Origin: a virus
IMG/VR virus record: IMGVR_UViG_3300001681_000071
Location: 15,173 to 79,172 of that record
Length of the DNA: 64,000 nt
Reading direction: 5' to 3' (one strand)
The first letter of the stretch is position 1; each line of letters opens with the position of its first letter. Made by a program: the position numbers and the translations under genes. Positions 8,476 to 47,611 of the stretch are shown here, piece by piece. Under the pieces are notes generated by a model. That model ran no database searches and was not told the DNA's origin. It worked only from the letters and a program-made list of their open reading frames with translations.

Positions 8476-9348
8476 ATGGAAAGGACGATAAGAATTGGCT
8501 CATTGTTTTCTGGTATTGGGGGGATTGAGCTTGGGTTAGAGTATGGTATTCAAAACTCTATAACTATTTGGCAAGTCGAGTCGAACGAATTTTGTCGCCA
8601 GGTGCTAAAGCGGCACTGGCCCAAGTCAAAAATCTATAACGATGTAAAGAAGGTAGGAAAACATAACTTAGAGCCTGTAGACATTATTTGTGGTGGCTTT
8701 CCGTGCCAAGATATTTCAATAGCCGGGAAAAGAGAGGGGATAAATGACGGTGCCAAATCGAGTCTTTGGTGGGAAATGTGGCGGGTTGTTAGCGAGCTAC
8801 GACCCCGAATCGTCGTCATTGAGAATGTCTCAGCTATCACTTTTTCCGATGGCGGGGGATGGGAGTTACTACATTCCCTTGCCCAAATCGGGTACTCTTG
8901 CGAATGGATTGATTTACGAGCAAGTGATCCCCCGTTCAACGCGCCACACGAACGAGAACGCATATTCTTTGTTGCCTACACCGACACCAGCACTGAATAT
9001 GACCTCTCCTTCAATGATGAAACACCAAGGGCATCAGAACTTTCGTGCGCTATTGCCGACACCAACAACGAACGATTGCAAAAACACACCGGGCGGTGTA
9101 GCCCAATGGGAAAGGCACAGCAGCTTAAATATAGAAGCCGCGAAGATGGCGGGACGAACAAAGACGACAATTGGAAAGGATTTCCGATTGAACCCCCGCT
9201 TTGTCGAAGAGATGATGGGATTTCCGATAGGGTGGACAGACTTAGAGCGTTAGGGAACTCAGTTGTTCCGGCATGTAGTAGGTGGATTGGTAAGCGAATA
9301 CAAGAGTCAGGTCTTTTAAGGAGAAGAGATGCATCAACACTTCCATAA
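8476..9348 (+). CDS. DNA cytosine-C5 methyltransferase, large polypeptide lacking motif IX
   Basis: motif I LFSGIGG, IV GGFPCQD, VI IENV, VIII RERIF, X LGNSVV. Confidence 0.92.
   Translation: MERTIRIGSLFSGIGGIELGLEYGIQNSITIWQVESNEFCRQVLKRHWPKSKIYNDVKKVGKHNLEPVDIICGGFPCQDISIAGKREGINDGAKSSLWWEMWRVVSELRPRIVVIENVSAITFSDGGGWELLHSLAQIGYSCEWIDLRASDPPFNAPHERERIFFVAYTDTSTEYDLSFNDETPRASELSCAIADTNNERLQKHTGRCSPMGKAQQLKYRSREDGGTNKDDNWKGFPIEPPLCRRDDGISDRVDRLRALGNSVVPACSRWIGKRIQESGLLRRRDASTLP
8744..9253 (+). CDS. internal +1-frame polypeptide carrying C5-MTase motif IX (putative beta subunit)
   Basis: 169-aa ORF nested in the MTase; GAGGGG SD just upstream of ATG 8744; ends RLNPRFVEEMMGFPIGWTDL. Confidence 0.75.
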   Translation: MTVPNRVFGGKCGGLLASYDPESSSLRMSQLSLFPMAGDGSYYIPLPKSGTLANGLIYEQVIPRSTRHTNENAYSLLPTPTPALNMTSPSMMKHQGHQNFRALLPTPTTNDCKNTPGGVAQWERHSSLNIEAAKMAGRTKTTIGKDFRLNPRFVEEMMGFPIGWTDLER

Positions 9349-9877
9349 AAATTTAAACGTTAAGAATATATTGTCACGATATAAACCATCGACAATTGTA
9401 GAACTTGGTGGGCTTAATGGAGCCAATACTTTACAGTTACTCACGATGGGCAAAGTCATCACTATAAGTGATAATAAGATGCCCGATAAGCTCTCTCCTT
9501 TCGTTAAGAAAGGCGAACTAAAATGGATACAAGCACTATCGTTTAACGCTCTCAAATCATTTGCTGATGGCTCTATTGAATTCGCTAGTGTTGACACTGA
9601 CCACAATTACACCACTCTAAAGTTAGAACTTATAGAATTAAAAAGAGCAATGAAGAAAGATGGTGTTGTTGTTTTACATGATGTTGAAACCTTTAAGAAT
9701 AGAAACAACCAACATTATACTCTTGAATATGCCAACGGAGAGCCATATAACTTTGCTCTAATGACACAAGGCCATAGCTACACAGCGGCTTTGACAGAAG
9801 AAATACAAGAGGGCGAATGGAAACTGTTGGATTGGTCAGAAGCGAGCAACGGAGCAGCGGCTATTATCAAAACTTAG
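9329..9877 (+). CDS. class I SAM-dependent methyltransferase (Methyltransf_24-like)
   Basis: IVELGGLNG, IEFASVDTDHNY, GVVVLHD. Confidence 0.75.
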   Translation: MHQHFHKNLNVKNILSRYKPSTIVELGGLNGANTLQLLTMGKVITISDNKMPDKLSPFVKKGELKWIQALSFNALKSFADGSIEFASVDTDHNYTTLKLELIELKRAMKKDGVVVLHDVETFKNRNNQHYTLEYANGEPYNFALMTQGHSYTAALTEEIQEGEWKLLDWSEASNGAAAIIKT

Positions 9878-9878
9878 G

Positions 9879-10349
9879 TTACCTCTCCATCGCAGAGAAG
9901 CGAGGTGTTCTTCTTTTTTCATCGAAGATCAATAGACAAGAAGGAGCCGGTGCTGAATTTGGTGCCTTTTGAAATTTGATACGTCCCCTCACAAGCCTAA
10001 TTTCAGCCGCCCTCATAGCCCAATCGTGCCACCACTTGGTGTCTGTACGGGCAAATGTCAAGCAAACCACCGTACAGCCTTTGGTACTCTCCCAATACGA
10101 TTTCTCAATCCATTTGCCCACTTCTCTCCCGTAAGGAGGGTTGAGCCACACTGCCTCTCCGCGAGAAATTTTATGCCATGGCAAACTCAAAGCATTCCGG
10201 GTCAGGTATAGAACACATTTATGGTTCTCAGCAGAGGCAGCAGCGTCCAATACAAAATTGAATTCATCATTGATCTTATTAAAGAAAGACCACGGAGTTC
10301 CCCAATCTTGTTTTTTGCTACTGAACAGTTTATCCTCGGACCAACTCAT
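9879..10349 (-). CDS. phage Dam-type DNA N6-adenine methyltransferase
   Basis: DWGTP, LDAAAS, WLNPPYG, ARTDTKWWH, GRIKF. Confidence 0.9.
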   Translation of the reverse strand: MSWSEDKLFSSKKQDWGTPWSFFNKINDEFNFVLDAAASAENHKCVLYLTRNALSLPWHKISRGEAVWLNPPYGREVGKWIEKSYWESTKGCTVVCLTFARTDTKWWHDWAMRAAEIRLVRGRIKFQKAPNSAPAPSCLLIFDEKRRTPRFSAMER

Positions 10350-10678: not shown

Positions 10679-11629
10679 TTAGAAGAAGTTGTCTGCGTAG
10701 TCGGCTATTATTCCAAAATCTCTGAATAGTTTGCACCTATCAAGGTCTATGCCAACAATCCTTCCATTTAATTCTGACAAGTATTCTCTGCCAAATACAG
10801 CCTGTCTTGCCCTGTAAAGCACACCAAAGCTTTCACCTGTCTGAGACACCACCTTTTGTATCCTCATGTGCATACGGTCTATGTCTCGACCCACGTAGTA
10901 TCTTCCTTTCTTCAATCCATGGAAGTCACACAGCAAACTCTCTGTTATTGCCATATCTACGCCTAATCTTGCGTATTCTGGGTACTCAACTACACTCATT
11001 GATAGCTGTTTATGTATCCATCTGGCATATTCTTCCAAAACAACGCTTGGCGATGAGTTTGCCATACCAGTAATGTCGCATACTCCCCTCCTTGGGCCAG
11101 AGGCTTCGTCTATTTCCATGGTGGATGGTATTACATCGAAAACGTTAACCTTATGAAACATATCGGCAGATGTATAAGCAGCCCATCTGCCATTACCCCA
11201 CACAGTTCTCAGATTGTTAAGAAGTGTTTTCCAATTGTCTTCTTTGGAATTGGTAAAGTCCTTCGTAAGATATTCTTTAGCACCACCGTTCTTAGATAAT
11301 TCAACCAAGCTATTTATATGTTTCGTAACACTGGTTGTTATAAGATTTCTGCGCTGTTTGCCTATATGAAGCTTATCGTAGTCCTCTGGTATACGTGTTG
11401 GATAAGGGTAGCGGAGGAACGTATAATAGGCAGAAGCCGGATTATAGAAGGCCATATAAAGAAATGATAACCACACTGCCTGTTCTGGATCCAGCCCTTT
11501 CTGTACCTCTATTAAAAGACCATGGAACGGATCATAGTCCTTTGTTTTCAACTGCTTTCTCGCAAAGTCGTTAAAGTAAAACCACGTATCCGACTTTTTT
11601 ACGCTGTCTGGATTTATGGTAGTTATCAT
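10679..11629 (-). CDS. amino acid:DNA transferase / aGPT-PPlase (clade 2-like), base hypermodification
   Basis: DYDP, WLSFLYMAFYN, QRR, HhH-like WGNGRWAAY..AD, SGPRRG, ESLLCDF, GRYYVGRDID. Confidence 0.8.
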   Translation of the reverse strand: MITTINPDSVKKSDTWFYFNDFARKQLKTKDYDPFHGLLIEVQKGLDPEQAVWLSFLYMAFYNPASAYYTFLRYPYPTRIPEDYDKLHIGKQRRNLITTSVTKHINSLVELSKNGGAKEYLTKDFTNSKEDNWKTLLNNLRTVWGNGRWAAYTSADMFHKVNVFDVIPSTMEIDEASGPRRGVCDITGMANSSPSVVLEEYARWIHKQLSMSVVEYPEYARLGVDMAITESLLCDFHGLKKGRYYVGRDIDRMHMRIQKVVSQTGESFGVLYRARQAVFGREYLSELNGRIVGIDLDRCKLFRDFGIIADYADNFF

Positions 11630-12531
11630 TCTTTTCCCATTGGTTCTCTACATATTGGAAGAGTTAGACAAGCAAAACCACCCCCTAATTTCCTTATCTC
11701 GTTCATTTTGCTTTTATAAACTACTATTCCATTGTCTTCTAATATAGACTCGGTTTCAGGACAGTCATCTGGCATCAAAACAGAGTTTGGCGAAAGTGTA
11801 ATCCAATTCATGGATAGTTTCTCGTTGACCTCCTTGCTCGGTTTTAGATGTATAATCTCACCCGACCACTTAAAATTCTCTGTATCACTTCTGGTAAATA
11901 ATCGTGTCCCAACAATGCGGTTTCCACCAAGTAAATGTTGTGGAATAGATGGGCCGAACTTATCAACATACTGCACTATACATCGTGTCTCATGGGACCA
12001 GAATTCAATTGCCTTTTTCTGGCTTCTGCCACCACAAGCAACACTAAAGGAGCCATCATTCATTATTAAGATGTCAGAAGCCTCAACAAAACCAATCATC
12101 AGTTTCATTGGAGAAGAATAATTACACCGAAACCACTTCATAATATAGTCAGCTTCACTACTCCTATGGGCTAACCCAGAGCGTGTAACATAAATCACAT
12201 CACCAACTATTTTCGCCATATCGCGAACAAACATTGAGTCAATGCTTTTACCACTACAAGCCTCATTTATATCCAAAACCTCTACTCCCAGACCCCGTAG
12301 CTTGGAAGTTAAAGAATCGAATTCCGTCAGTAATGTGTCATGGTTTGGAAGCTTAATCCAAGATGGCGGAGGCAAAGATGGCGGAGGCAAAGATGTACGT
12401 GAAGATAGAGTCATACGTGTATGCGAAAACACTTCTGCATGAAATTTCAGATTGGTTGGGCGATTGACCAACACCGTAAACAGGTTCCCTGTTTCGTTTG
12501 TAATAAATGCACGCTTTTTATGTCCAATCAT
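11626..12531 (-). CDS. amidinotransferase / arginine deiminase / DDAH (pentein) family enzyme
   Basis: VLVNRP, MFVRD, EASD (EGGD-like), HLL, C-terminal GGGFACLT with catalytic Cys. Confidence 0.8.
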   Translation of the reverse strand: MIGHKKRAFITNETGNLFTVLVNRPTNLKFHAEVFSHTRMTLSSRTSLPPPSLPPPSWIKLPNHDTLLTEFDSLTSKLRGLGVEVLDINEACSGKSIDSMFVRDMAKIVGDVIYVTRSGLAHRSSEADYIMKWFRCNYSSPMKLMIGFVEASDILIMNDGSFSVACGGRSQKKAIEFWSHETRCIVQYVDKFGPSIPQHLLGGNRIVGTRLFTRSDTENFKWSGEIIHLKPSKEVNEKLSMNWITLSPNSVLMPDDCPETESILEDNGIVVYKSKMNEIRKLGGGFACLTLPICREPMGKE

Positions 12532-13615
12532 TTGAAGTCATCGGATATAAAAGCTGTTTCATAATCGTTCGTATTCTTTCTTTTTTTGCGAAAAGTAGTA
12601 TTTCCTCTTTTCTTTTGTGCCATCTATACTTCTTAGGGGAACTTGTTGCCATAGTGAGTTTAAGATCAATCGGATGCGGGGGCTCTATACCAATGTCCCT
12701 GCAAATCGTATGAATCATTCTTTGGGGATGGGCTACAACTTCTTCAAACTTATAAGATAATGATATATTATATTTAAGTGCCATCGAATGTGCGTTTGCC
12801 CACTGGTTCAAACAAACCTCGATCAGCCTTTTGTTTTTGTCGTCATACCAGCCTGGGTAAAGGTCAAAACACCACCAATTATAATAATTGTAATTCTTAA
12901 TATTAAGCCCTCCGACCTTGTAAGCAAAAAAGGCCCTTTTGTGCAACCATCCATCCATAAGTCCATTAACAGTAGCCGCAAAAGAACGTTTGAGATGTAT
13001 ATATTGAATCTCGCTAACGGGGAATAGTTCTTTAAATAAGCTTGGCCTATACACATTTTGCGGTGTTTTAAAGATGATGACCTTGCCACTTAAAGACAAT
13101 GGATAAGAACATGCTGTTGGCATGACAAATGGCGGTTCTTCCAGTATCACCTTGTGTTTTTGTGCTTCGCGGTCTTCCAATTTTCCATCGTACCAACTTT
13201 GGTCTACATCTTCAAATCTTGCCGTATCCTTGCCAGGCCATTGTAGTATCTTTCTTATGTGTATAGAATTTATAAGATGAGACTCTACACTAATATGCTT
13301 GTGACAAAGTTCTCCGCGCACAAGCGTTTTCAATTCTAATATATTATCAATTTTATCTAGTCTGTTCCCGCACAAGTAATCCTCATTCACAGCATTGCCA
13401 GTTAGCTTTAAATAAGGCTCTATCTCGCCTTGTAGGCTCACTACACTTGGGCTTCTGCTCAATACATCGAATAAACAACTACTCCCACTCCTTGAGGCCG
13501 TAAGAATTACAACTACTTTCTTTGGTTCGCCTATTGGGGAGTTGAGCAGTTTTCGGATATTGTTTTTTGCTGCCCCTATTTGATGATCATTCGGTTTCAA
13601 CAATAGTTCTGGCAT
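12518..13615 (-). CDS. PAPS-dependent sulfotransferase family protein
   Basis: 5'-PSB loop ILTASRSGSSCL, FKTP, 3'-PB IHLKRSFAATVNG, YKFEEVV..P. Confidence 0.8.
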   Translation of the reverse strand: MPELLLKPNDHQIGAAKNNIRKLLNSPIGEPKKVVVILTASRSGSSCLFDVLSRSPSVVSLQGEIEPYLKLTGNAVNEDYLCGNRLDKIDNILELKTLVRGELCHKHISVESHLINSIHIRKILQWPGKDTARFEDVDQSWYDGKLEDREAQKHKVILEEPPFVMPTACSYPLSLSGKVIIFKTPQNVYRPSLFKELFPVSEIQYIHLKRSFAATVNGLMDGWLHKRAFFAYKVGGLNIKNYNYYNWWCFDLYPGWYDDKNKRLIEVCLNQWANAHSMALKYNISLSYKFEEVVAHPQRMIHTICRDIGIEPPHPIDLKLTMATSSPKKYRWHKRKEEILLFAKKERIRTIMKQLLYPMTSNDWT

Positions 13616-14141
13616 TTGTATTGATCCAATCTATTACTATCTCTGAAAGGGCTTTGGGGCTTTGCTTGCCATCTAAAATCAAACGGTCTCTATTCTTAAA
13701 CATGTTAAAAAAGTTCTTTGCCTTTGTCTCCCTTCCCTTTAACCAATTTGCATTTTGATTGGACCCACGTTCTTTCCTACGTTCCACAAGAACATCATTT
13801 GGCAAATCTATCAATATACAAAAGCACCCGTCAGCGAATTCATTAACATATTCAAGACAGTATTTTGTAGAGAACCTATCGCCATCAAATATGGTGACAG
13901 AGTATTTTTCATTAGCCAGAAGAAAGCTACTCCAATACTGCAAAGACTCTTTGAAGGCATTGTATGGAACGGTATCGCCACCATCGAACGTCTTCCCCAA
14001 GTAATGACCAGACAGTATGATGTTGTTTGTAAGGGTCCACTTTGGCTTAACTACAAACTCTGTATCGAATGGGTCAATATAGTTTCTTAGCATGGTTGTT
14101 TTTCCACAACCAGGAGAACCAACAACCCAAACTCCTATCAC
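13587..14141 (-). CDS. P-loop nucleotide kinase, putative hydroxymethylpyrimidine-DNA kinase
   Basis: Walker A GSPGCGKTT, GHY..TFDGGD, FDGDRF, lid ERRKERGSNQ..WLKGRETK; in the same operon as the aGPT-PPlase. Confidence 0.75.
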   Translation of the reverse strand: MIGVWVVGSPGCGKTTMLRNYIDPFDTEFVVKPKWTLTNNIILSGHYLGKTFDGGDTVPYNAFKESLQYWSSFLLANEKYSVTIFDGDRFSTKYCLEYVNEFADGCFCILIDLPNDVLVERRKERGSNQNANWLKGRETKAKNFFNMFKNRDRLILDGKQSPKALSEIVIDWINTNARTIVETE

Positions 14142-15067
14142 AATGACTCCAGCTTTCTGGTGTTGTATTTCTTGGCCCTTTTAAGCTCCTCTTCTGGGGA
14201 TAAGCAGCCAAGGATACGGTTTCTAAGATACATAACTACGCTAACTCGATACCAATCCTTATTCTTTTTTCCTTCGGCTTTTGGAGGAATATTGCCGTGC
14301 CATACAGCAGGGTTAAAAAGTATAAAATCGCCATGCCGCATATTTACAGCCAAGCTAAATTCTGGAAGGACCAATTCAAATCCAGAATAATCTCCGTGTC
14401 TCATGGCAAACATGCAACCAAAACCTTCTTTAAGGTCGCCACTGTCTTGATGATAAGCAGCACACACCGTATTATTGACGGAGATTGTTGAAAATGGTGT
14501 GCCAGGTACTACCCAAGCTGGATGAGCTTTGTTTGCAAATTCTGTTTGTATCTCATGGAAGTTTGGCAGCAAAGACTTATAGATCCGCGAACACTTCCGC
14601 AAGTGTTTGGCAATTTTTGCCCATTCCTCTGGGTGGTCGCGTGTATACGTTGTTGCTCTACAATATGGGAAGCGACCTCCAACGCTCTCATAAAATCCAC
14701 CTATAGAGCTGTAGACGGAGACCATTCTGCCATTTTCATCTAATGATCTCTCTGATTTAGATAATGTGCCATCCTTTTTGATTACCCGACTTTGCTTGTA
14801 TCCGGCATATGCCGCCCTTGCATCTGATGGGTATCTCATAAATTCCCTATATGGCTTTCTCACTTCTTCCAGTTCTTCGTCAGTGAAACATCCACGCCTC
14901 ATAAGTATAATGGGTATACCATTGCTGCTATATACATCACAATTGCCGTCTATTATTAGACCATAATGGTTAGGTCTTGGATGGGTAGATTTCCAAGGCT
15001 CTATCTTTTCAGCCGATACTTTCGACCTTACCACTATCTTCATTGTTTTCATTATCATCACCACCAA
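14138..15067 (-). CDS. TET/JBP-family 2-oxoglutarate-Fe(II) dioxygenase
   Basis: GTPFSTISVN, HQD (HxD), LVLPE, GDFILF, WHGN, RVSVVMY; true start probably an ATG at 15058-15043. Confidence 0.88.
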   Translation of the reverse strand: MVVMIMKTMKIVVRSKVSAEKIEPWKSTHPRPNHYGLIIDGNCDVYSSNGIPIILMRRGCFTDEELEEVRKPYREFMRYPSDARAAYAGYKQSRVIKKDGTLSKSERSLDENGRMVSVYSSIGGFYESVGGRFPYCRATTYTRDHPEEWAKIAKHLRKCSRIYKSLLPNFHEIQTEFANKAHPAWVVPGTPFSTISVNNTVCAAYHQDSGDLKEGFGCMFAMRHGDYSGFELVLPEFSLAVNMRHGDFILFNPAVWHGNIPPKAEGKKNKDWYRVSVVMYLRNRILGCLSPEEELKRAKKYNTRKLESL

Positions 15068-15791
15068 GACGCTTGTACTCTGCCATTACCGCTTCATAAA
15101 CTGTATCTGGCATATTATCCGTGTCATATGCGTATGATAACGACTTACAAGCCATCTTGAATTTTTGGCACTTCTCGTTTTCAAATATAAGCTGAATCAT
15201 TCTGGAAGTAGAAATAGTTGGATTATCTATCGTGATTACATCTTCGGCAATTGCGTCTTCATCTCCAGAATCCCAGACATTAGTAACGGTAGAATTTTCT
15301 GTTCTTCCACCAGCACCAGCATTGGCATCATTGCCACTATACTTTTCATCGGGAGGAGCAAAGAAGTCTAAGGAGTCGTCTATTCCCCCAAAGGAATTGA
15401 TCAAATCATCCATTTCACTACCAGTGAAGCCAAGCATCGTTGGATCAAAATCTGCAAGTTTGGCTAACTCTTCTAAGTGGTGTGCAAGCATAGCCTCATC
15501 CCATCCGGACAGTTCTCCAGAACGATTGAGCCTAATAGATAATTTTCTTGCTACCTCATCGGATACGTCCAAATAAACTATATTTGTTGTTTCGTATCCG
15601 AGTTCCTTTAAAACCTTTAGCCTTGCATTCCCAGCAATAACCATTTGGGTTGTTTTCTGAACAATTAACGGCTCTACCTGCCCATGATCTTCAATGCTAT
15701 CTCGTATAGCTGCATAGTTTTGTTCATTGTGTTTTCTTGGGTTTTGCGGATCATAGACAAGTAAATCAACTTCAACTTCGGCATATTCCAT
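15009..15791 (-). CDS. ParB/Srx N-terminal domain protein
   Basis: NPRKH, SIEDHGQVEPLIV, VIAGNARL, LSIRLNR..WD. Confidence 0.85.
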   Translation of the reverse strand: MEYAEVEVDLLVYDPQNPRKHNEQNYAAIRDSIEDHGQVEPLIVQKTTQMVIAGNARLKVLKELGYETTNIVYLDVSDEVARKLSIRLNRSGELSGWDEAMLAHHLEELAKLADFDPTMLGFTGSEMDDLINSFGGIDDSLDFFAPPDEKYSGNDANAGAGGRTENSTVTNVWDSGDEDAIAEDVITIDNPTISTSRMIQLIFENEKCQKFKMACKSLSYAYDTDNMPDTVYEAVMAEYKRLGGDDNENNEDSGKVESIG

Positions 15792-22511: not shown

Positions 22512-22884
22512 ATGCTTTAAGTATCACAACTGAATTCAAAATATTTCCTATAGACTCACACTCTTGACCAGAAGTCTTGCTATCAATGCCTCTTGTGGTC
22601 ATACGGCAAAACATTTCTCTACACAAACCATCTTCGTGTTTGTCTATATATTCCATAGAACAAGGTATTTCCAATAAGTCTATGTTTGTAAGCTGTTTCT
22701 GAACAGCTATTTGTTCCTCGGCTACTTTGTTATCAGGAACTATCACTACAGGTACAATGTCGGGCCTTCTATTCAAGGCCATGAATGTGCCAGCCGTTCC
22801 ACCGCCACCAACAATAGTACCAATCAAAATCCATCCCCACCAAGTCATATTAACCTCTGCTATTTTTTCTAAATCTACTTTCAT
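22465..22884 (-). CDS. membrane-anchored Cys-rich protein (possible lysis accessory)
   Basis: N-terminal TM (WWGWILIGTIVGG), six Cys in the soluble part. Confidence 0.45.
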   Translation of the reverse strand: MKVDLEKIAEVNMTWWGWILIGTIVGGGGTAGTFMALNRRPDIVPVVIVPDNKVAEEQIAVQKQLTNIDLLEIPCSMEYIDKHEDGLCREMFCRMTTRGIDSKTSGQECESIGNILNSVVILKACEGSEDCERIFEKRK

Positions 22885-23432
22885 ACTATATCCAAACTTA
22901 CATCCGAAATGACTTCATCACCCCAACAATCCCAACCATCAACTCTTCTTCTTGCGAACAATTCTATTTTGTTTTGAACAGGGAACATATCCTCTATCCT
23001 TTGACGTACTTCTTCCGGCTTCTGGCTGTGTTTTGTGCGCTTTGAGTATACATACTGCCTTGCGTTCCTTATGCCTCTTGGTTGCGGAATACGCCCCCTT
23101 TTACCCAGCAAACAGAGTTCGCACTGAGACATTGTGTAAAATCCTGGGTTTACTCTTACTTTATCCCACACAAAACCGACTGTAGCCCACTTGAAACCCC
23201 AAGACCTCATAAGGTCTACCGCTTGGTCTAAATGCGGGTTAGTTGTCCACATGAATAGCAAACAATCATCGTCACAGATAGAAGTAACATTAAGACGTTT
23301 AAGGTCTTTGAGCTTTATGGTCGAATAATGAGAGATAGCTCCTCCGGTATCTATCCCACCTTCACCGTTATGTTGTTTTTGTCCTTTGTAATCCCATGGT
23401 GGGTCCACATAAATGACTTGGTACTTTTTCAT
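22881..23432 (-). CDS. MT-A70 family adenine methyltransferase
   Basis: VIYVDPPW, LFMWTT, WGFK, ELCLLG, HSQKP, KIELFAR, GWDCWG. Confidence 0.9.
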   Translation of the reverse strand: MKKYQVIYVDPPWDYKGQKQHNGEGGIDTGGAISHYSTIKLKDLKRLNVTSICDDDCLLFMWTTNPHLDQAVDLMRSWGFKWATVGFVWDKVRVNPGFYTMSQCELCLLGKRGRIPQPRGIRNARQYVYSKRTKHSQKPEEVRQRIEDMFPVQNKIELFARRRVDGWDCWGDEVISDVSLDIV

Positions 23433-30667: not shown

Positions 30668-32338
30668 CTATGCTATACGGTCATACAACAACCACATCCT
30701 CAAACCTATAACAAGCCTACCACGTTGATACTCAATCTTCTCTATTGTGGATTTAATCTCGGAAAGACCTAATTTTTCGTCAGTAATCTTTACATTATCT
30801 CCCAATTGAACCATAAACATCAATGCCGGAGATCCTTCGTATTCTACATAATAAGATGGAAGACTAAAATGAGATGCCAGCCAATCAGCAACGTATTGGG
30901 CGGTAGCATCATCATGGATAATCACACTTTCTAACGGTTCTCTTTCTCTAAGACCCAATCGGCTTTCTGAAATTTTGCAAAACACATTGTTCGATGAATT
31001 GACCGTTATAATCTTTTCATGGTTATTGGTAATACCGTTAAATGAATATTTCAGAACATATGAATTGTAAATGTCTTCTTTAGAGGACTCTTGTACGGAA
31101 GAGGCCCTATCATACAAGAGATTTTGTCCAACTATCAGTTCCTCAACATACACAGGGCTACTTCTATTTGTAAATACAGGCCCATAACCACGACCACTGT
31201 AGGCCATACTAATCATTGGAAAACTACTACATATTGTGGACTCGATATAATCTATCGCTGTAGCTATATCGTTCTCTCCGCTGGCGTTTATCAGCAATTG
31301 TGCCAGTAATGTCGGACATTTCGTCTTGGCTCTTGAAAAAAGGTTCTCGTCTACACCAACAGGGCCATATAAAGTCATTGTCCGTATAATATCTTCTATT
31401 AATTCAATAACAATTCTCTCTGACCCATCAGAGCGTTCAACATAAACGTAGACCGATACATCTTTGTAGTAGCTATGGCTTTGGTTTAGAATGCTAACTT
31501 CCAGATACTTTATTCCATTAGCCGAGAAAGCATCACTAACAGTTACGATATTGAGAACCTGTGGAAGCTCTTCTCCATCAACAAAAACAGTCGTTACTCG
31601 ATGTTGGTGCCCTAAACAAACAACAAATTTATGTTGATACGAGCCAGTTGATAGGTCTTCTCTAAGAACACCAATACATGGCACACCAGAAGTATTTCTG
31701 TCCATTACAATTGGGAATCTAAACCCAATGGAATCTTCTGGTATTGATGCTCCTTTAGTATAATTTCCGAAGGAATTTTCGTCACAGATGTATTGTGGCT
31801 GGATCTTATCAAATGTTATCTTTGGATCAATAACATCAAATTCCAATGGCTCATCACTTGTGCCAAAGACCACACCACCAGACATATCTCCTTTCAACAA
31901 AACGTAACGAGACTCATATTCTCCATCTGGTATTTGCAAACTTATCTCAGCAAACCCAGTTATTAAATCACCACCAAGAACAACCGCCATTGGATCAAGC
32001 GTCCTGGCATCAATACTAACAACAAAAGAACGCTGAGATGCAGCACCAGAACCCAATGTGTAGGAAGAGCTTATGGTTGGCTCTGCTATGAGCTTAGGCG
32101 CATAATAGTGACTTTTTGAGTTCTTATCTATCGTTGAAATGCTATCGGTTGCGACTGAAATTCTATGACCGTTCCCGAAAACAAAATCCATAGTCATGAC
32201 AACATTGGTCATGCCGGGGTCTTTCGTTATAATATCTAACCAATAAGAATTGATGACATTTACTGAAAAAACACGATTAAACACAATAGATCGCAAGTCT
32301 CTAAAACTATAGACCCCACCAGCACTAGTAACCGTCAT
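30668..32338 (-). CDS. putative tail tip/hub protein
   Basis: downstream of tape measure; C-terminal VQLGDNVKITD motif. Confidence 0.6.
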   Translation of the reverse strand: MTVTSAGGVYSFRDLRSIVFNRVFSVNVINSYWLDIITKDPGMTNVVMTMDFVFGNGHRISVATDSISTIDKNSKSHYYAPKLIAEPTISSSYTLGSGAASQRSFVVSIDARTLDPMAVVLGGDLITGFAEISLQIPDGEYESRYVLLKGDMSGGVVFGTSDEPLEFDVIDPKITFDKIQPQYICDENSFGNYTKGASIPEDSIGFRFPIVMDRNTSGVPCIGVLREDLSTGSYQHKFVVCLGHQHRVTTVFVDGEELPQVLNIVTVSDAFSANGIKYLEVSILNQSHSYYKDVSVYVYVERSDGSERIVIELIEDIIRTMTLYGPVGVDENLFSRAKTKCPTLLAQLLINASGENDIATAIDYIESTICSSFPMISMAYSGRGYGPVFTNRSSPVYVEELIVGQNLLYDRASSVQESSKEDIYNSYVLKYSFNGITNNHEKIITVNSSNNVFCKISESRLGLREREPLESVIIHDDATAQYVADWLASHFSLPSYYVEYEGSPALMFMVQLGDNVKITDEKLGLSEIKSTIEKIEYQRGRLVIGLRMWLLYDRIA

Positions 32339-35300
32339 TAAACAACTTCCTGTAAGCTAATGGACATATTGCCAATTGGTTTCCATTGAAGATTGCGTTG
32401 ATCATAGTACCAACCTTCATTATCCAGAGAAGTAGAGCCGTTATACTTAGATAAAATTAGATTGTCCGTCCTTTCCTTCGTAAAACCATTGAAGAACACA
32501 ATTGGCCTTTTAGAATAGCTAGATAAACTTCTCAACGAATCTCTTATTTTAAGTCTTTCCTCTTCACTCACATCGCCAACGATACTGAGGGTTAACTCTC
32601 GATTTGGTGGCCCTTCGTTGTAGCACCAGTAAACCCCACTACGGGTGGTGAATTCTGTTTGGTTAGGGGTCTCCTCGTCTGAATATGCCCAATCAAGAGG
32701 AACATTAAAGTCAAACTTCTGACCACCTACAATGGTTCCTATTCGCACATGCCCTTCATATGTATAAGGCGTAGTAGATGCCAACCTAAAGATAGGCAAA
32801 TGAACCATATTATCAAATTCAACTACAGAACGGTCTGCAAAAATCGCAACTGAAGTTCCAACCATAGATGCTTGAGAAATCTTACTTACATCTGGTGCTT
32901 CAAACGTGAAAGAGTCGGATCCAATATGATTATCAATCTTAAACACAGCATTTGTTGGATAATAAAAGGTATCTGCCGTATTTGTTATTTCTAAGTAGAA
33001 CGATCTTTTATCGGAAGAAGATAATGACCCACCACGAACAATGTCCTCGTTTTCAGTACCAGCATATCCGGCACCAAAATAATCAATGACCCAAACTCCT
33101 TCCGTTACACTGGAAACACGACCAGTAATGATTGTTGCATCAAAATCTTTAGATGTTGTAATCACAGTAGCAGCAGTAGAACGATAGGAAACTGTCCCCC
33201 TACGAATGTTTGTATTGAATAAAGCAACACACCGATGACTAAATACCTTGTCATTTGGTGCTTTAAAATCCAACACTACACTTGAAGGAGAGGTCTCTGA
33301 TCTAAACATGGTTCTTGGAGAAGCAAAAGCGACAGCATTTTTAGAACTATATGAAAAGGCATTTGAGGCAGAGTAAGAGTCTCCATCCATTCCACCTGTT
33401 CCTCCCCACACAATCTCTATCTTATCGTTCATTAATACAGGTTCTCCTGTCATTAGCTTTCCGCGTGGAACATCTTTACGTTCCACATACTTCCATGGGC
33501 TTGTTGCGATACCGCTAAAATCACTATGTAGCTGACACATCAAGGCAGAGGAAGTTAAATCATTCGACCTATGAACACCGAAGTTTTGGAATTCAATAAC
33601 AGTAGGGCCGCTAGGAGCAACAGTCGGTGTGTGTGGAAATAATCCGAATGAAACTGCTTGGTGCCACGGATTTGTTGTAGTGGAATTAACAAAAGATGGA
33701 GCAACATAATCGCTATCTGATGTTGTAGTTGATGACTTTGGGTAAACCATTGGAGTAGAGTACCAAGTCTCTGTTCCCTTTTTCCGAGCCATTAAAAGAC
33801 ACGCAGTTCTAATATTGGGATTGGCCTTAGTTGCCGACCAAACGCCTTGAACGGATAATGGATACCATCCCCACCTAAATTCAACAAAGCTGTCTTTAAA
33901 GAAATCAGTGCTTGGGCTTATAGTAGCTAATGCTATGTTCTGTCTTTCATCCCAAATTATTGCATAGCTTTTTCTAAGTCGAACACTACATCTAACTAGT
34001 GCGCCCTTAAAGTATGGTGGTGTCGTTACTGGCGGTTCCCATATACTCATAGAATCTAACATAAAACTATTGAGACTAATCCCAGCAATCAGTGTAGTAT
34101 TTTGAACTACAGAAGATGTATTTTCACGACGGATTTTTGAGGTCCATACTATACAAGAGCCATGCCCATTAGTTGCTGGGATACTTACATCTGGTGGCGG
34201 TGCCGTACTCCACCAATAACCAGAATTATACGGACTTATTGTCCCCGCATTATCTGGTACAAAGCACCAATTAACATCTGGCGTGGCCTGGTTTCTATAG
34301 ATCCCAAGTGGATTAACAGCACTGACGCTCGCGTCATAATCATACTGACATATACCGGCAGAAGGGGACCAAACTGTGTTGTTGTTCCATGTAGATCCAT
34401 TTCTGAAAGGGTATGCACCAACCCCCGGATCTTGGAATGTATATGCTGCATATGTTTCAACATTGTATGCAATATTAGCTAATTTCAAGCTTTCGGTAGT
34501 TAGATTTTGTGTGCAATATCTAATGCTTCTCTTAAAAGGAGTATTAAGGGAAGAGTTGGTTGGAGTATTGTTCTCAGCCGGTGAGCCAATTGTTATGTCC
34601 CAATAAGGAGCGAAAATAGCGCCTTTTGGTTGCCAAGGATTTAATTCATCTAAAGACTTCTTACCCATTAGAAAAGAGTCAGGATAGTTACCAGCATTAA
34701 ATGACCGTACAGGAGCTATTGACCATCCACCCATCTTGTAATAAAAAATAAGAGCTAAGTTTGAATTTATGCCGGTGTTTCTATCGTATGCCTTATGAAA
34801 GAAAGAGAGAGATCCACCAGCCCAAAAGAGTTTTCCAACAGCCGGTAAATGGCGTATAGCACAGTTAAACCCAGTAATTCCGAACTCCGTGTCGCTACTG
34901 TCTACTGACCCAAGTGCTGTCCAGTTTACTTCTTGGAGGTTAGATCCTAACGGTATCCTCTCCATATTATATTCTATGGCATCACTGGTATTCTCAACAT
35001 TCAAATAATTATTCCTCTGACATAGATGAGAATAATAAATGACTAAATGAGCATCGGTTTTGCACATAAAGGGCTTCTCCGACCCCCACGAACCACGATG
35101 ATGTATGTTTAGATTTTCTTGACCCTGAAAAGCACCTGATCCGGTAGCCATATACCCGGTATAGGCCATAATCCCATTTTGGCTAAGATTTATATAGCTA
35201 TCATAATCTTCTAAAAATGGATTTGGATCTGCTGATTCTGTTCTCTCAAACCATACATCAACATCTGGCTTAACCATTAGAACAAAGGTTCCGCTATCGT

Positions 35301-36351
35301 CTGCCGATGAAACATCGAACGACCACTTTGGGCCATTAAAATCAACTGTGCCCGGAACTATATCAAATTGATTTGTTAGACCCCAACTGGATCCACCATC
35401 AATACTAACCAACCCCAATAGATACCAAGAGTCAATAAACTCCAAATCAGACCTGCTACCAAACGGAGTAGAAGCTACGGTAACATCTTCTCGTCCAGCT
35501 ACTGTTTCTGTATTTTTAGATGACGGGTCTTTGACTTCTCTTGCTGTATTAGCCGATACATACTCAACACACACAATTCGCAAGTAGTAACCGCTTGATA
35601 CAAGCCTTATCTCGTCAAGTCCAGCAGCTTTTCTACCAAGAAATCTTGATGTGACCCTATCGCAAATTGCTGTCCACTCCAATCCGTCTTCAGAAGAAAA
35701 AATAGTTATGTCATTATTGCTTATGATTGCCATTCTGAACGTACCGTCAGGCATTACGCAAACATCAATACCGTGATATGGCAATTTATGTTGTGATAAC
35801 TGTTTTGACGATGTTCTTATCTGCCAATTGCTTGCTGTTGTCCAAGACTGTTCGTAATTAGACGCCCCTGCATTTCGGTATCGCGTCTGAATAGATCCAG
35901 TAGGATAGCGCGTTGAAGCCAAGTTCTTATATGTGTATAAGTATTCTTTTTTCAATTTGGGATTGTATACAGCAGCCAGCGAATTCATTTGAAAACTTGC
36001 TGCCCCACTATCAAACGGGTCTGAAAAGTCATGGCGATACCGTATATCGTGCTGACCATAGTAGTTATCGTCGCTCTTGGTCTTGTCTTTCCACGTCCAA
36101 GTTGCTTCTCCCAACGAACCGCTTGTTTGTGCTCTTAAATCATACTCTGTAGACTGTGTTGGTACTCCCATAGCAAAAGCTGAGTTGTTGCCTAAATTCG
36201 TGCTTGCTGGCGTTATGCTGGGTGAAATCAATGCTGGCTTGGTTGGAACCGCTAAAGGAGCATTTGCCGAAGTCATCACCTCTGCTTCCGTTAGCAGTGG
36301 GTCTGGAAGAATAAAGAACTGAGTAACATTATTTGACGAAAATAGTGGCAT
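32338..36351 (-). CDS. large tail/baseplate protein
   Basis: 1337 aa, beta-rich, immediately after tape measure. Confidence 0.6.
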   Translation of the reverse strand: MPLFSSNNVTQFFILPDPLLTEAEVMTSANAPLAVPTKPALISPSITPASTNLGNNSAFAMGVPTQSTEYDLRAQTSGSLGEATWTWKDKTKSDDNYYGQHDIRYRHDFSDPFDSGAASFQMNSLAAVYNPKLKKEYLYTYKNLASTRYPTGSIQTRYRNAGASNYEQSWTTASNWQIRTSSKQLSQHKLPYHGIDVCVMPDGTFRMAIISNNDITIFSSEDGLEWTAICDRVTSRFLGRKAAGLDEIRLVSSGYYLRIVCVEYVSANTAREVKDPSSKNTETVAGREDVTVASTPFGSRSDLEFIDSWYLLGLVSIDGGSSWGLTNQFDIVPGTVDFNGPKWSFDVSSADDSGTFVLMVKPDVDVWFERTESADPNPFLEDYDSYINLSQNGIMAYTGYMATGSGAFQGQENLNIHHRGSWGSEKPFMCKTDAHLVIYYSHLCQRNNYLNVENTSDAIEYNMERIPLGSNLQEVNWTALGSVDSSDTEFGITGFNCAIRHLPAVGKLFWAGGSLSFFHKAYDRNTGINSNLALIFYYKMGGWSIAPVRSFNAGNYPDSFLMGKKSLDELNPWQPKGAIFAPYWDITIGSPAENNTPTNSSLNTPFKRSIRYCTQNLTTESLKLANIAYNVETYAAYTFQDPGVGAYPFRNGSTWNNNTVWSPSAGICQYDYDASVSAVNPLGIYRNQATPDVNWCFVPDNAGTISPYNSGYWWSTAPPPDVSIPATNGHGSCIVWTSKIRRENTSSVVQNTTLIAGISLNSFMLDSMSIWEPPVTTPPYFKGALVRCSVRLRKSYAIIWDERQNIALATISPSTDFFKDSFVEFRWGWYPLSVQGVWSATKANPNIRTACLLMARKKGTETWYSTPMVYPKSSTTTSDSDYVAPSFVNSTTTNPWHQAVSFGLFPHTPTVAPSGPTVIEFQNFGVHRSNDLTSSALMCQLHSDFSGIATSPWKYVERKDVPRGKLMTGEPVLMNDKIEIVWGGTGGMDGDSYSASNAFSYSSKNAVAFASPRTMFRSETSPSSVVLDFKAPNDKVFSHRCVALFNTNIRRGTVSYRSTAATVITTSKDFDATIITGRVSSVTEGVWVIDYFGAGYAGTENEDIVRGGSLSSSDKRSFYLEITNTADTFYYPTNAVFKIDNHIGSDSFTFEAPDVSKISQASMVGTSVAIFADRSVVEFDNMVHLPIFRLASTTPYTYEGHVRIGTIVGGQKFDFNVPLDWAYSDEETPNQTEFTTRSGVYWCYNEGPPNRELTLSIVGDVSEEERLKIRDSLRSLSSYSKRPIVFFNGFTKERTDNLILSKYNGSTSLDNEGWYYDQRNLQWKPIGNMSISLQEVV

Positions 36352-36353
36352 TA

Positions 36354-47117: not shown

Positions 47118-47611
47118 TATCCCCTTCCCTGACGCTTAATATGCCGTATAAGAGTCTTTTCAAATACCGAAGCTAGCTTTTGTTGTACGACAGGTTTAGT
47201 GGCCTCTCCACGAACCGGATCACGCGCAACCATTATCTTGGTGCCTTCCCAAACATACAGCCTTGATTTCGGGATCCCAGAAGTAGGCCCAACCCGACCT
47301 TCTAATGTAAGACTGTTAACGTCAAAACCAAGATACTTTAGAAAAACACCCTTTCTTTTATGAACCATGTGTGGCTCTAAATTTCCGGGTAAAGGAAAGC
47401 CTCCAGCCCACTTTGTGGCGTATGGGTGGTTAAGATACCGTAGTCGCATTTCCGATATATCTGTTCTGGAAGACGCTTCAACCGAATACTGTAGAAGCCT
47501 TTTTGTTGTAGCCCTTAGAGCAAGAACAACAGCAAGATTTACACCTCTTTTAGACTTGCGAAGCTGATCACTTAGCCCCGATACATTTATTCTCAACTCT
47601 ATCTTCGGCAT
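47117..47611 (-). CDS. putative neck/tail completion protein (HK97 gp10-like)
   Basis: basic, EGTKIMVARD motif, position. Confidence 0.6.
   Translation of the reverse strand: MPKIELRINVSGLSDQLRKSKRGVNLAVVLALRATTKRLLQYSVEASSRTDISEMRLRYLNHPYATKWAGGFPLPGNLEPHMVHKRKGVFLKYLGFDVNSLTLEGRVGPTSGIPKSRLYVWEGTKIMVARDPVRGEATKPVVQQKLASVFEKTLIRHIKRQGRG

What the first reader, a model, noticed from the sequence alone, without database searches (positions are those of the whole stretch)
10679..15791. Six-gene post-replicative DNA hypermodification operon with sulfotransferase and amidinotransferase tailoring enzymes
Seen: six - strand genes that overlap in a chain (ParB/TET; GTGA at 14138-14141; 29 bp; 14 bp; ATGA at 11626-11629): ParB-like, TET/JBP dioxygenase, P-loop kinase, sulfotransferase, pentein enzyme, aGPT-PPlase. 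Established: in thymidine hypermodification (phages M6, ViI, PhiW-14) a 5-hmU DNA kinase activates 5hmU and an aGPT-PPlase/amino-acid:DNA transferase swaps the phosphate for an amine or amino acid, which neighbouring enzymes then tailor; TET/JBP enzymes hydroxylate the 5-methyl of T or 5mC in DNA. Inference: the operon makes the hydroxymethyl base directly on DNA, activates and aminoacylates it, then amidinates/deiminates and sulfates it. I know of no characterised phage base built with this pair of tailoring enzymes, so the product may be a new guanidino and/or sulfated nucleobase, probably anti-restriction.
Basis: partly seen in the sequence, partly recalled or inferred. Interest (0 to 1): 0.93.

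Follow-up and report, generated by a model that had tools for sequence, protein, structure and literature searches.

The report
Phage thymine-hypermodification operon with sulfotransferase
An uncultured 79-kb phage carries a six-gene operon that most likely oxidises thymine in its own DNA and rebuilds it into an undescribed, probably sulfated, arginine-derived base, using a sulfotransferase and guanidino-hydrolase pair found in dozens of uncultured phage and metagenome contigs but in no cultured phage.

Summary

The core of ParB, dioxygenase, kinase and AADT is a published class, the ParB-dependent phage thymine dioxygenases (PNAS 2026). The sulfotransferase and pentein pair is the new part.
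- It is obligate: 17 of 20 sulfotransferase-baited viral loci carry the pentein, and 27 of 27 pentein-baited metagenome loci carry the sulfotransferase.
- It sits in 5-hydroxymethyl-pyrimidine clusters.
- The whole six-gene set recurs in the same order at 34-47% identity in another complete phage, which has no C5-methyltransferase. Thymine is therefore the likely substrate.

The pentein is DDAH-like (dimethylarginine dimethylaminohydrolase-like), a hydrolase rather than an amidinotransferase. An arginase-family gene replaces it in two phage loci and follows the sulfotransferase in 80 of 80 bacterial loci. This points to a guanidino (arginine-type) intermediate.

The final base is unknown. No paper I searched describes the pair, and no cultured phage carries it. 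This scan had already noted the same trio on other DNA. Verdict: real, and a new variant of a known kind.

The parts
15009..15791 (-). ParB-like protein (260 aa, pI 4.2). It has an N-terminal ParB/Srx nucleotide-binding domain with a GNGR motif and a conserved C-terminal region. Probable activator of the adjacent dioxygenase.
   Evidence: PF02195 E 7e-8 at residues 4-86 and no other Pfam domain. phrog_620 2e-35. About 15 full-length relatives were found and aligned. Its 3' end overlaps the TET gene. The activator role is inferred from PMC13229309.
14138..15052 (-). TET/JBP-family 5-methylpyrimidine dioxygenase (304 aa; the ORF is open from TTG 15067). Predicted to make 5-hydroxymethyluracil on phage DNA.
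   Evidence: PF12851 2e-21. phrog_24024 3e-48. H201, D203, H252 and R269 are invariant in 23 homologues. The 304-aa form is the called gene product.
13587..14141 (-). Small P-loop kinase (184 aa). Predicted to phosphorylate the 5-hydroxymethyl group on DNA.
   Evidence: PF18751 Ploopntkinase3, 29.1 bits against a cutoff of 27. Walker A motif GSPGCGKT and a DGDR motif are visible. It does not match APS kinase PF01583 even at E 0.1. In L012 the gene at the same position is PF18748, a 5-hmdU DNA kinase.
12518..13615 (-). PAPS-type sulfotransferase (365 aa) of an uncharacterised Sulfotransfer_3 subfamily.
   Evidence: PF13469. 162 homologues. AF2 model with pLDDT 89. The top fold matches are all sulfotransferases: CurM ST Z 15.0, TPST1/2 Z 14.4. 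R42, G44, E64, K183 and R210 are invariant (and S45 conserved in at least 90%) in 48 homologues.
11626..12531 (-). DDAH-like pentein (guanidino-group hydrolase, 301 aa). Its stop overlaps the AADT start.
   Evidence: The 15-sequence profile matches P. aeruginosa DDAH over its full length, E 1.4e-28. Human DDAH1 scores 3e-19, ADI 3e-18, ArgZ 4e-14 and AGAT 2e-10. D104, E150, D153, R169, H199 and C288 are invariant.
10679..11629 (-). Amino acid:DNA transferase (AADT, formerly aGPT-Pplase; 316 aa).
   Evidence: PF18724 E 1.2e-19, plus PF18746. E230 and C234 (ESLLCD) are invariant in 7 homologues. The closest cultured relatives are actinophage genes annotated aGPT-Pplase2.
8476..9348 (+). Context only: a C5-cytosine DNA methyltransferase, convergent with the operon. 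Probably not part of the pathway.
   Evidence: PF00145 4e-41. It lies on the opposite strand with a Dam gene in between. The syntenic phage genome has no PF00145 gene at all.

Best explanation
This is a post-replicative thymidine-hypermodification operon of a complete, uncultured 79-kb phage.

Inferred from characterised homologues:
1. The ParB-like protein activates the TET/JBP dioxygenase, which turns thymine in phage DNA into 5-hydroxymethyluracil.
2. The P-loop kinase phosphorylates the hydroxymethyl group.
3. The AADT replaces the phosphate with an amine nucleophile through an exocyclic-methylene intermediate.

Inferred here from comparative genomics: the sulfotransferase and the DDAH-like pentein form an obligate two-enzyme module that works on a guanidino-bearing moiety. 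The pentein hydrolyses the guanidino group. The PAPS-dependent sulfotransferase adds a sulfonate.

My preferred chemistry, held at low confidence, runs as follows:
1. An arginine-type donor is attached through its alpha-amine.
2. Its guanidino group is hydrolysed, leaving a ureido group or a free amine.
3. The adduct is N- or O-sulfonated.

The result would be a sulfated or sulfamated amino-acid-thymine base that shields the DNA from host nucleases. It is not settled whether the pair acts on the DNA adduct or prepares the free donor before transfer.
For: Families and catalytic residues of all six proteins:
- Pfam and PHROG matches.
- Dioxygenase H-x-D...H...R invariant.
- AADT E...C invariant. 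Lee et al. report an essential Cys and Glu in these enzymes (PMC8989533).
- Sulfotransferase fold, Z 15, with invariant PAPS-loop residues.
- Pentein Cys-His-Glu set, plus the arginines that align to DDAH residues.

Published class: ParB-dependent 5mYOX (5-methylpyrimidine dioxygenase, the TET/JBP enzymes) oxidises T and is 'consistently linked' with P-loop kinases and AADTs (PMC13229309).

Conserved synteny:
- The full six-gene set recurs in L007 and L115.
- L007's complete genome has the dioxygenase but no C5-methyltransferase.
- The window's own genome has no thymidylate-synthase homologue. The dioxygenase is therefore the only evident hydroxymethyl source.

The obligate pair:
- The pentein directly follows the sulfotransferase in 17 of 20 sulfotransferase-baited viral loci.
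- The sulfotransferase sits directly upstream in 27 of 27 pentein-baited metagenome loci that have room for it.
- The neighbours are AADTs, 5-hmdU DNA kinase domains (PF18723, PF18748) and thymidylate-synthase homologues.

Guanidino inference:
- In 80 of 80 bacterial loci, the same sulfotransferase subfamily is followed by an arginase-family gene.
- The two viral loci without a pentein have an arginase-family gene after sulfotransferase and AADT instead.
- Two unrelated guanidino-hydrolase folds therefore fill one slot.
Against: - No chemistry was measured, and the acceptor of neither tailoring enzyme is known.
- The commonest phage context of the pair shows no AADT within 8 kb. That context holds thymidylate-synthase homologues, an APH-like kinase and a P-loop kinase. 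One 132-kb contig of this type (70% complete) has no AADT at all. The pair may therefore not depend on an AADT adduct.
- The bacterial relatives sit in loci with no DNA-modification genes. Most phage copies of both enzymes are acidic. Both facts fit small-molecule substrates better than DNA.
- A C5-methyltransferase lies 1.3 kb from the operon. Published ParB-dependent enzymes also oxidise 5mC. Cytosine cannot be excluded.
- The kinase's Pfam score is marginal.
- An AF2 model of the pentein failed (pLDDT 43).
Confidence: 0.68

Rival explanations
1. The same enzymes act on cytosine. The phage C5-methyltransferase makes 5mC. The dioxygenase makes 5hmC. Kinase, AADT, sulfotransferase and pentein then build a hypermodified cytosine, or both T and 5mC are modified.
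For: A C5-MTase gene lies at 8476-9348, 1.3 kb from the operon. Phage TETs of other clades oxidise 5mC, and some C5-MT/TET contigs carry a P-loop kinase and an aGPT-Pplase (PMC8256090). The characterised ParB-dependent enzyme also oxidises 5mC iteratively (abstract).
Against: The methyltransferase is on the opposite strand in another transcription unit. The syntenic, complete L007 genome carries the cassette and has no PF00145 gene. ParB-associated 5mYOX enzymes are assigned to the thymine-oxidising clade.
Confidence: 0.13
2. The sulfotransferase and hydrolase do not touch DNA. They make an unusual free amine from a guanidino metabolite, for example a sulfonated or de-amidinated arginine or agmatine derivative, and the AADT then installs that amine on the base.
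For: Bacterial homologues form a methyltransferase, sulfotransferase and arginase trio with no DNA-modification genes nearby. About 35% identity and 23 invariant residues span the phage and bacterial enzymes. Most phage copies are acidic.
Against: In every characterised thymidine pathway the tailoring is done on the DNA polymer, after a standard amino acid has been transferred (PMC8989533). In this window both enzymes are basic, pI 9.2 and 8.4. This reading shares the core pathway with the best explanation and differs only in step order.
Confidence: 0.25
3. The sulfotransferase is an activating enzyme. It sulfonates a hydroxyl, either 5hmU itself or a hydroxy-amino-acid adduct, to create a leaving group. 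No sulfate remains in the final base.
For: The best fold and sequence match is the CurM activating sulfotransferase: Z 15.0, profile E 7e-7. The commonest phage context of the pair lacks a visible AADT.
Against: TPST and Stf-type sulfotransferases score within 1 Z unit of CurM ST, so the fold does not discriminate. The operon already has a kinase to activate the hydroxymethyl group. The bacterial loci contain no hydroxymethyl-base system, yet they keep the sulfotransferase and guanidino-hydrolase pair.
Confidence: 0.12
4. The P-loop kinase supplies PAPS, as an APS kinase would, and is not a DNA kinase. This would echo the APS-kinase, sulfotransferase and amidinotransferase trios of cyanobacterial guanidine alkaloid clusters (my own recollection, not checked here).
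For: A small P-loop kinase precedes the sulfotransferase in nearly all phage loci. There are weak PDB hits to APS kinases, E about 0.02.
Against: There is no match to PF01583 at E 0.1 anywhere in the phage genome. The kinase does hit Ploopntkinase3. In L012 the equivalent gene is PF18748, a 5-hmdU DNA kinase. The UMP/CMP-kinase hit scores better than APS kinase; the other nucleotide-kinase hits are about as weak.
Confidence: 0.07

Closest known systems
ParB-dependent phage thymine dioxygenase pathways (5mYOX clade C1; O'Toole et al., PNAS 2026, PMC13229309)
   Same: A ParB homologue sits directly beside a TET/JBP dioxygenase. Both are linked to a P-loop kinase and an AADT. The dioxygenase makes 5hmU post-replicatively.
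   Different: The published neighbourhoods list glutamine amidotransferases, kinases and AADTs. Neither version of the paper mentions a sulfotransferase or a deiminase/pentein. The paper determined no final base for such a pathway. Here a C5-MTase also lies nearby.
Thymidine hypermodification of phages M6, ViI, PaMx11, SP10 and PhiW-14 (Lee et al. 2018 and 2021; PMC5889632, PMC8989533)
   Same: The logic of 5hmU in DNA, then a DNA kinase, then an AADT, then tailoring enzymes encoded between or beside them.
   Different: Those phages make 5hmdU before replication with a thymidylate-synthase homologue. They use 5-HMUDK (PF18748/PF18723) as the kinase. They tailor with PLP decarboxylase, radical-SAM isomerase, flavin lyase or acetyltransferase. 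None has a sulfotransferase or a guanidino hydrolase. Their AADTs are too distant to hit by tblastn.
ParB, TET, AADT and kinase cassettes of cultured actinophages (for example Gordonia phage MakoManhole genes 1-5, and Mycobacterium phage Phelemich)
   Same: The closest cultured relatives of the AADT (about 32% identity), and also relatives of the dioxygenase (about 26%). The core has the same four genes.
   Different: The gene order is ParB, TET, AADT, kinase. The fifth gene is an unrelated hypothetical protein. There is no sulfotransferase or pentein. To my knowledge these cassettes are also uncharacterised.
Pseudomonas aeruginosa and human DDAH (pentein hydrolases)
   Same: Full-length profile match. 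The Cys-His-Glu triad, the guanidine-binding Asp and two Arg residues are conserved. The third residue after the catalytic His is not Asp, as in DDAH (HLK) and unlike ADI/AGAT (HLD) (the HLD comparison is from my own knowledge).
   Different: About 20-25% identity. Scores lie far below NCBIfam's DDAH equivalog cutoffs: 43.7 bits against 340. The context is phage DNA modification, so the substrate is surely not free ADMA.
CurM/OLS activating sulfotransferases and tyrosylprotein sulfotransferases
   Same: The same PAPS-sulfotransferase fold (Z 14-15). It has an RSGSS-type 5'-phosphosulfate loop, a conserved Glu after it, and a conserved Arg in the 3'-phosphate motif (the motif naming is from my own knowledge).
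   Different: 13-17% identity and large insertions. This is a separate subfamily that is always paired with a guanidino hydrolase.
Clethramycin/mediomycin late tailoring (Hong et al. 2017, PMC5704753)
   Same: A PAPS sulfotransferase and an arginase-family amidinohydrolase both tailor one guanidino-bearing molecule, in either order. This is a precedent for the enzyme pairing and for guanidine as a masked amine.
   Different: That substrate is a polyketide, not DNA. The genes there are unlinked. No homology was tested.

Membership tests
ParB-dependent 5mYOX (phage thymine dioxygenase) subclass | TET/JBP 2OG-Fe(II) oxygenase domain with the H-x-D...H facial triad and the 2OG-binding Arg | tested here: met
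   PF12851, 76 bits against a cutoff of 34.9. H201, D203, H252 and R269 are invariant in 23 sequences.
ParB-dependent 5mYOX (phage thymine dioxygenase) subclass | A cognate ParB homologue encoded next to the dioxygenase, with an N-terminal nucleotide-binding domain and a C-terminal domain | tested here: met
   ParB_N at residues 4-86. The gene overlaps the TET gene. The C-terminal region is conserved in full-length relatives. Only one Pfam domain was found. The absence of a DNA-binding domain is therefore not proven.
ParB-dependent 5mYOX (phage thymine dioxygenase) subclass | Linkage to thymidine-hypermodification genes (P-loop kinase, AADT) | tested here: met
   Both lie in the same overlapping operon.
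ParB-dependent 5mYOX (phage thymine dioxygenase) subclass | No neighbouring C5-cytosine methyltransferase (the criterion the authors used to predict T rather than 5mC) | tested here: inconclusive
   Not met in this window: PF00145 lies at 8476-9348 on the opposite strand. Met in the syntenic complete genome of L007, which has no PF00145.
ParB-dependent 5mYOX (phage thymine dioxygenase) subclass | Activity on double-stranded DNA requires the ParB partner, and the dioxygenase has an extended C-terminus | not testable with these tools
Amino acid:DNA transferase (AADT / aGPT-Pplase) | Match to the family profile over most of its length | tested here: met
   PF18724, 71.4 bits against a cutoff of 26.2, profile positions 2-226 of 232.
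Amino acid:DNA transferase (AADT / aGPT-Pplase) | Essential active-site Cys with a neighbouring essential Glu (Lee et al. 2021) | tested here: inconclusive
   E230 and C234 are invariant in 7 homologues. I could not align them to M6 gp51 or PaMx11 gp46 to confirm that they are the same positions.
PAPS-dependent sulfotransferase | Sulfotransferase fold | tested here: met
   AF2 model with pLDDT 89. CurM ST scores Z 15.0 over 216 residues at rmsd 3.7. All 50 top rows are sulfotransferases.
PAPS-dependent sulfotransferase | 5'-phosphosulfate-binding loop, 3'-phosphate-binding Arg/Ser motif and a catalytic base | tested here: met
   S-R42-S-G44-S45-S, G63-E64 and R210 are invariant or nearly so in 48 homologues. 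Assigning them to the named motifs rests on my own knowledge of TPST and CurM ST.
Pentein (guanidino-group-modifying) superfamily, DDAH-like hydrolase branch | Full-length similarity, with the catalytic Cys, His and Glu/Asp and the guanidine-binding Asp | tested here: met
   The profile scores E 1.4e-28 against P. aeruginosa DDAH residues 21-253 of 254. D104, E150, D153, H199 and C288 are invariant.
DDAH proper (dimethylargininase orthologue) | Score above the curated equivalog cutoff | tested here: not met
   NF045660 gives 43.7 bits against a cutoff of 340. NF045658 gives 33.5 bits against 450. The protein works like DDAH but is not an orthologue.
Amidinotransferase (AGAT / StrB1 / SxtG type) | Closest similarity to amidinotransferases, and a function that a hydrolase cannot replace | tested here: not met
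   AGAT scores 2e-10 and SxtG 1e-3, against 1.4e-28 for DDAH. Arginase-family hydrolases fill the slot in L012, L015 and 80 bacterial loci.
5-hmdU DNA kinase (5-HMUDK, PF18748 + PF18723) | Match to the 5-HMUDK profiles | tested here: not met
   Neither PF18748 nor PF18723 hits at E 0.01. The protein hits PF18751 Ploopntkinase3 just above its cutoff. It is inferred to be a functional analogue, not a family member.

The most novel reading that the evidence does not exclude
The virion DNA of this phage and its relatives carries a sulfonated thymine derivative, a sulfate ester or sulfamate on an arginine-derived side chain. It would be made by a route in which a guanidino group serves as a masked amine and is removed by a DDAH-like or an arginase-like hydrolase. 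I know of no naturally sulfonated DNA base, so it may be the first described. It would also give a function to a widespread, uncharacterised sulfotransferase and guanidino-hydrolase module of bacteria, CPR bacteria and archaea.
Probability: 0.3. Interest if true: 0.9.

Novelty: new variant of a known kind. Interest (0 to 1): 0.72.

Why it matters
- Every thymidine hypermodification solved so far ends in an amine, amino acid, polyamine or acetamide. A sulfonated base would add a strongly anionic group to DNA. That would bear on restriction and CRISPR evasion, DNA packaging, and enzymatic DNA labelling.
- The operon is compact: six genes, no pre-replicative step, and a syntenic second example. 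It can be tested directly by co-expression in E. coli.
- The comparative result gives a concrete biochemical handle on the unknown step. One sulfotransferase subfamily is always coupled to a guanidino hydrolase of either of two unrelated folds. The same result links a phage DNA pathway to an uncharacterised bacterial operon.

Tried and rejected
The contexts of P0002 (69% identical sulfotransferase), P0122 and P0123 could not be read.
ParB and dioxygenase binding was not tested, although alignments A7 and A8 had been prepared for it.
- AF2 of the pentein from a 4-sequence alignment gave pLDDT 43 and was discarded.
- Single-protein scans of viral contigs found nothing. A first pentein alignment was too diverse to search with.
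- blastn of the operon against GenBank phages gave no match.
- I considered and rejected an APS-kinase role for the P-loop kinase. There is no PF01583 match, and the phage has no CysD/CysH-type gene.
- PDB profile searches with the kinase alignment gave only generic nucleotide-kinase and GTPase hits.
- AADT searches in the thymidylate-synthase-type contigs found nothing. Those records are 18-70% complete, so absence is not shown. Four metagenome records could not be searched at all.
- Isoelectric points were computed as a proxy for DNA binding. They are inconsistent between relatives and so carry little weight.
- Promoter and terminator scans did not exceed shuffled controls.
- The Iyer et al. 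2013 paper (PMC3763556) is not held. I could not check whether it mentions this pairing.

Full report
**What is there**

The window is bases 15173-79172 of a 79,172-bp IMG/VR virus record that CheckV rates 100% complete. Six - strand ORFs run in an unbroken, overlapping chain from 15791 down to 10679. I read the junctions directly.
- ParB's stop lies inside the dioxygenase ORF, whichever in-frame start is used. The gene caller's product starts at ATG 15052.
- GTGA lies at 14141-14138.
- There are overlaps of 29 and 14 nt.
- ATGA lies at 11629-11626.

ADDT is Pfam's name for the amino acid:DNA transferase (AADT, formerly aGPT-Pplase). The kinase, sulfotransferase and pentein hits were marginal on their own, so I tested the sulfotransferase and the pentein further; the kinase rests on its motifs and on the gene at the same position in L012.

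The operon sits in the replication module. A primase-helicase lies upstream, with a PD-(D/E)XK nuclease and an AAA_24 ATPase beyond it. Downstream lie a Dam methylase and, on the other strand, a Methyltransf_24 gene and a C5-cytosine methyltransferase.

**The core is a published class**

O'Toole et al. (PNAS 2026, PMC13229309) showed that many phage TET/JBP enzymes (5mYOX, 5-methylpyrimidine dioxygenases) oxidise thymine in DNA after replication. One subclass needs an adjacent ParB homologue as activator. That subclass is 'consistently linked' with P-loop kinases and AADTs.

The present ParB-like protein and dioxygenase fit this description.
- The dioxygenase keeps H201, D203, H252 and R269 across 23 homologues.
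- The ParB-like protein has the N-terminal ParB/Srx domain and a conserved C-terminal region.
- The AADT keeps an invariant Glu and Cys four residues apart. The characterised AADTs have an essential Cys and a neighbouring Glu and work through an exocyclic C5-methylene intermediate (PMC8989533).
- The closest cultured relatives of the AADT and, more distantly, the dioxygenase are actinophages such as Gordonia phage MakoManhole. Their first five genes are ParB, TET, AADT, a kinase and a hypothetical protein.

**Thymine or 5-methylcytosine**

The nearby C5-methyltransferase raises the cytosine option. Several facts count against it.
- It lies on the opposite strand in another transcription unit.
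- A second complete phage genome (the record of L007, 79,355 bp) carries the same six genes in the same order at 34-47% identity. That genome has the dioxygenase but no PF00145 gene anywhere.
- The window's own genome has no thymidylate-synthase homologue. The dioxygenase is therefore the only evident source of a hydroxymethyl pyrimidine.

I therefore favour thymine. I keep cytosine, or both bases, as a rival, because the characterised ParB-dependent enzyme also oxidises 5mC.

**The sulfotransferase**

It has 162 detectable homologues of about 35% identity. An AF2 model built on 48 of them is confident (pLDDT 89, pTM 0.90). Its 50 best structural matches are all PAPS sulfotransferases, led by the following.

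| Match | Z | Aligned residues | rmsd (Å) |
|---|---|---|---|
| CurM activating sulfotransferase | 15.0 | 216 | 3.7 |
| Tyrosylprotein sulfotransferases | 14.4 | 221-228 | 3.5-3.8 |
| Mycobacterial Stf9 | 14.3 | 260 | 4.4 |

An S-R-S-G-S-S loop, a G-E pair after it and a downstream Arg are invariant or nearly so. From my own knowledge these correspond to the 5'-phosphosulfate loop, the catalytic base and the 3'-phosphate motif. I take it to be an active sulfotransferase. The fold does not tell the acceptor.

**The pentein**

A 15-sequence profile gives the following scores against solved structures.

| Solved structure | E-value |
|---|---|
| P. aeruginosa DDAH (dimethylarginine dimethylaminohydrolase), residues 21-253 of 254 | 1.4e-28 |
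| Human DDAH1 | 3e-19 |
| Arginine deiminase (ADI) | 3e-18 |
| Arginine dihydrolase ArgZ | 4e-14 |
| Glycine amidinotransferase (AGAT) | 2e-10 |

The catalytic Cys288, His199 and Glu150, the Asp104 and Asp153 positions, and two Arg residues that align to DDAH arginines are conserved. It is a DDAH-like hydrolase but not a DDAH orthologue. NCBIfam scores lie far below the cutoffs.

**The pair is an obligate module of phage hydroxymethyl-pyrimidine clusters**

- With the sulfotransferase as bait, 20 viral contigs were found. In 17 of them the pentein follows directly, often with overlapping stop and start.
- With the pentein as bait, all 27 metagenome loci with more than 600 nt upstream have the sulfotransferase directly upstream. 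The viral scan returned the same contigs plus one truncated one.

The neighbours fall into three arrangements.
1. ParB, TET, kinase, sulfotransferase, pentein, AADT: the window, L007 and L115, with partial copies in L114, L116 and L117.
2. AADT, sulfotransferase and pentein, with 5-hmdU DNA kinase domains: L013, L014, L017, L118 and L128.
3. The commonest: a guanylate-kinase-like gene, a P-loop kinase, the sulfotransferase, the pentein, an APH-like kinase and thymidylate-synthase homologues.

The pair thus serves pathways with either a pre-replicative or a post-replicative hydroxymethyl source. Neither gene occurs in any of 50,697 GenBank phage records.

**What the pair probably does**

In 80 of 80 bacterial and archaeal loci, an arginase-family gene immediately follows the same sulfotransferase subfamily. 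These loci are mostly Oxalobacteraceae, with some CPR bacteria and a Woesearchaeote. In 75 of them a HemK/PrmC-type N-methyltransferase precedes it. None has any DNA-modification gene nearby.

The two viral loci that lack a pentein (L012, L015) have an arginase-family gene right after the sulfotransferase and AADT.

Arginase-family and pentein enzymes are unrelated folds that both hydrolyse guanidino groups. Arginase-family enzymes are hydrolases and never amidinotransferases. This non-orthologous displacement is the strongest clue available. The chemistry needed next to this sulfotransferase is hydrolysis of a guanidino group.

My preferred model runs in three steps.
1. The AADT installs an arginine-type donor.
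2. The hydrolase converts or removes the guanidino group.
3. The sulfotransferase sulfonates the adduct.

A sulfotransferase and an amidinohydrolase tailoring one guanidino molecule in either order has a precedent in mediomycin biosynthesis (PMC5704753).

**Limits**

Nothing here measures chemistry. Three observations cut against the simple model.
- The commonest phage context shows no AADT. The contigs are fragments, so absence is not shown.
- The bacterial loci suggest a small-molecule substrate.
- Most phage copies of both enzymes are acidic.

The pair may therefore prepare the donor before transfer. Alternatively the sulfate may serve only as a leaving group, as in CurM. The P-loop kinase is not an APS kinase by profile. 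The phage encodes no PAPS-supply genes, so host PAPS would be used.

**Novelty**

- The core is known (PMC13229309).
- The sulfotransferase and guanidino-hydrolase module is not mentioned in the five key papers I searched or in full-text searches.
- Iyer et al. 2013 could not be read.
- Earlier notes of this scan had already flagged the AADT, sulfotransferase and guanidino-hydrolase trio on another phage genome (e1-5746059). It is therefore a repeat sighting within the scan.

I class it as a new variant of a known kind, with a realistic chance of a chemically new DNA base.

Noticed in passing
L021-L100 (for example L023:7234-10027): A conserved, uncharacterised three-gene unit: HemK/PrmC-type N-methyltransferase, Sulfotransfer_3 and an arginase-family protein. 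It occurs in Oxalobacteraceae (Massilia, Duganella, Undibacterium, Janthinobacterium, Rugamonas), in CPR bacteria and in a Woesearchaeote. It often sits beside two-component sensor kinases and an NMT1-like binding protein.
   Followed up: partly
window 8476-9348 (+), with nested ORF 8744-9253 (+): The C5-cytosine methyltransferase matches only profile positions 2-201 of 324, so its C-terminal part is missing from this ORF. A 169-aa ORF is nested in another frame.
   Followed up: no
window 9329-9877 (+), 9879-10349 (-), 22881-23432 (-): Three further methyltransferase genes lie in the same phage, in addition to the C5-MTase and the hypermodification operon: Methyltransf_24, Dam-type N6-adenine and MT-A70. 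The DNA is probably modified in several ways.
   Followed up: no
L155 (Gordonia phage MakoManhole 1-3926) and related Gordonia, Mycobacterium, Microbacterium and Rhodococcus phages: Cultured actinophages start their genomes with ParB-like, TET-like, AADT, P-loop kinase and a 290-aa hypothetical gene, next to the terminase. They are culturable models for a ParB-dependent thymine pathway whose product seems to be undescribed.
   Followed up: partly
L006, L008, L010, L011, L130, L144 and similar loci: In the commonest context of the sulfotransferase and pentein pair there are two thymidylate-synthase homologues, an APH-like kinase, a guanylate-kinase-like gene, homing-endonuclease-like inserts (NUMOD3, GIY-YIG) and a sigma factor. 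No AADT is visible.
   Followed up: partly
window 11626-12531 (-), residues about 46-56: The pentein carries a tandem SLPPP-SLPPP duplication that is absent from a 98%-identical database protein (P0121).
   Followed up: no
window 32338-42302 (-) and 47568-50522 (-): Very large ORFs of 1337, 1982 and 984 aa lie in the structural region. I did not examine them.
   Followed up: no
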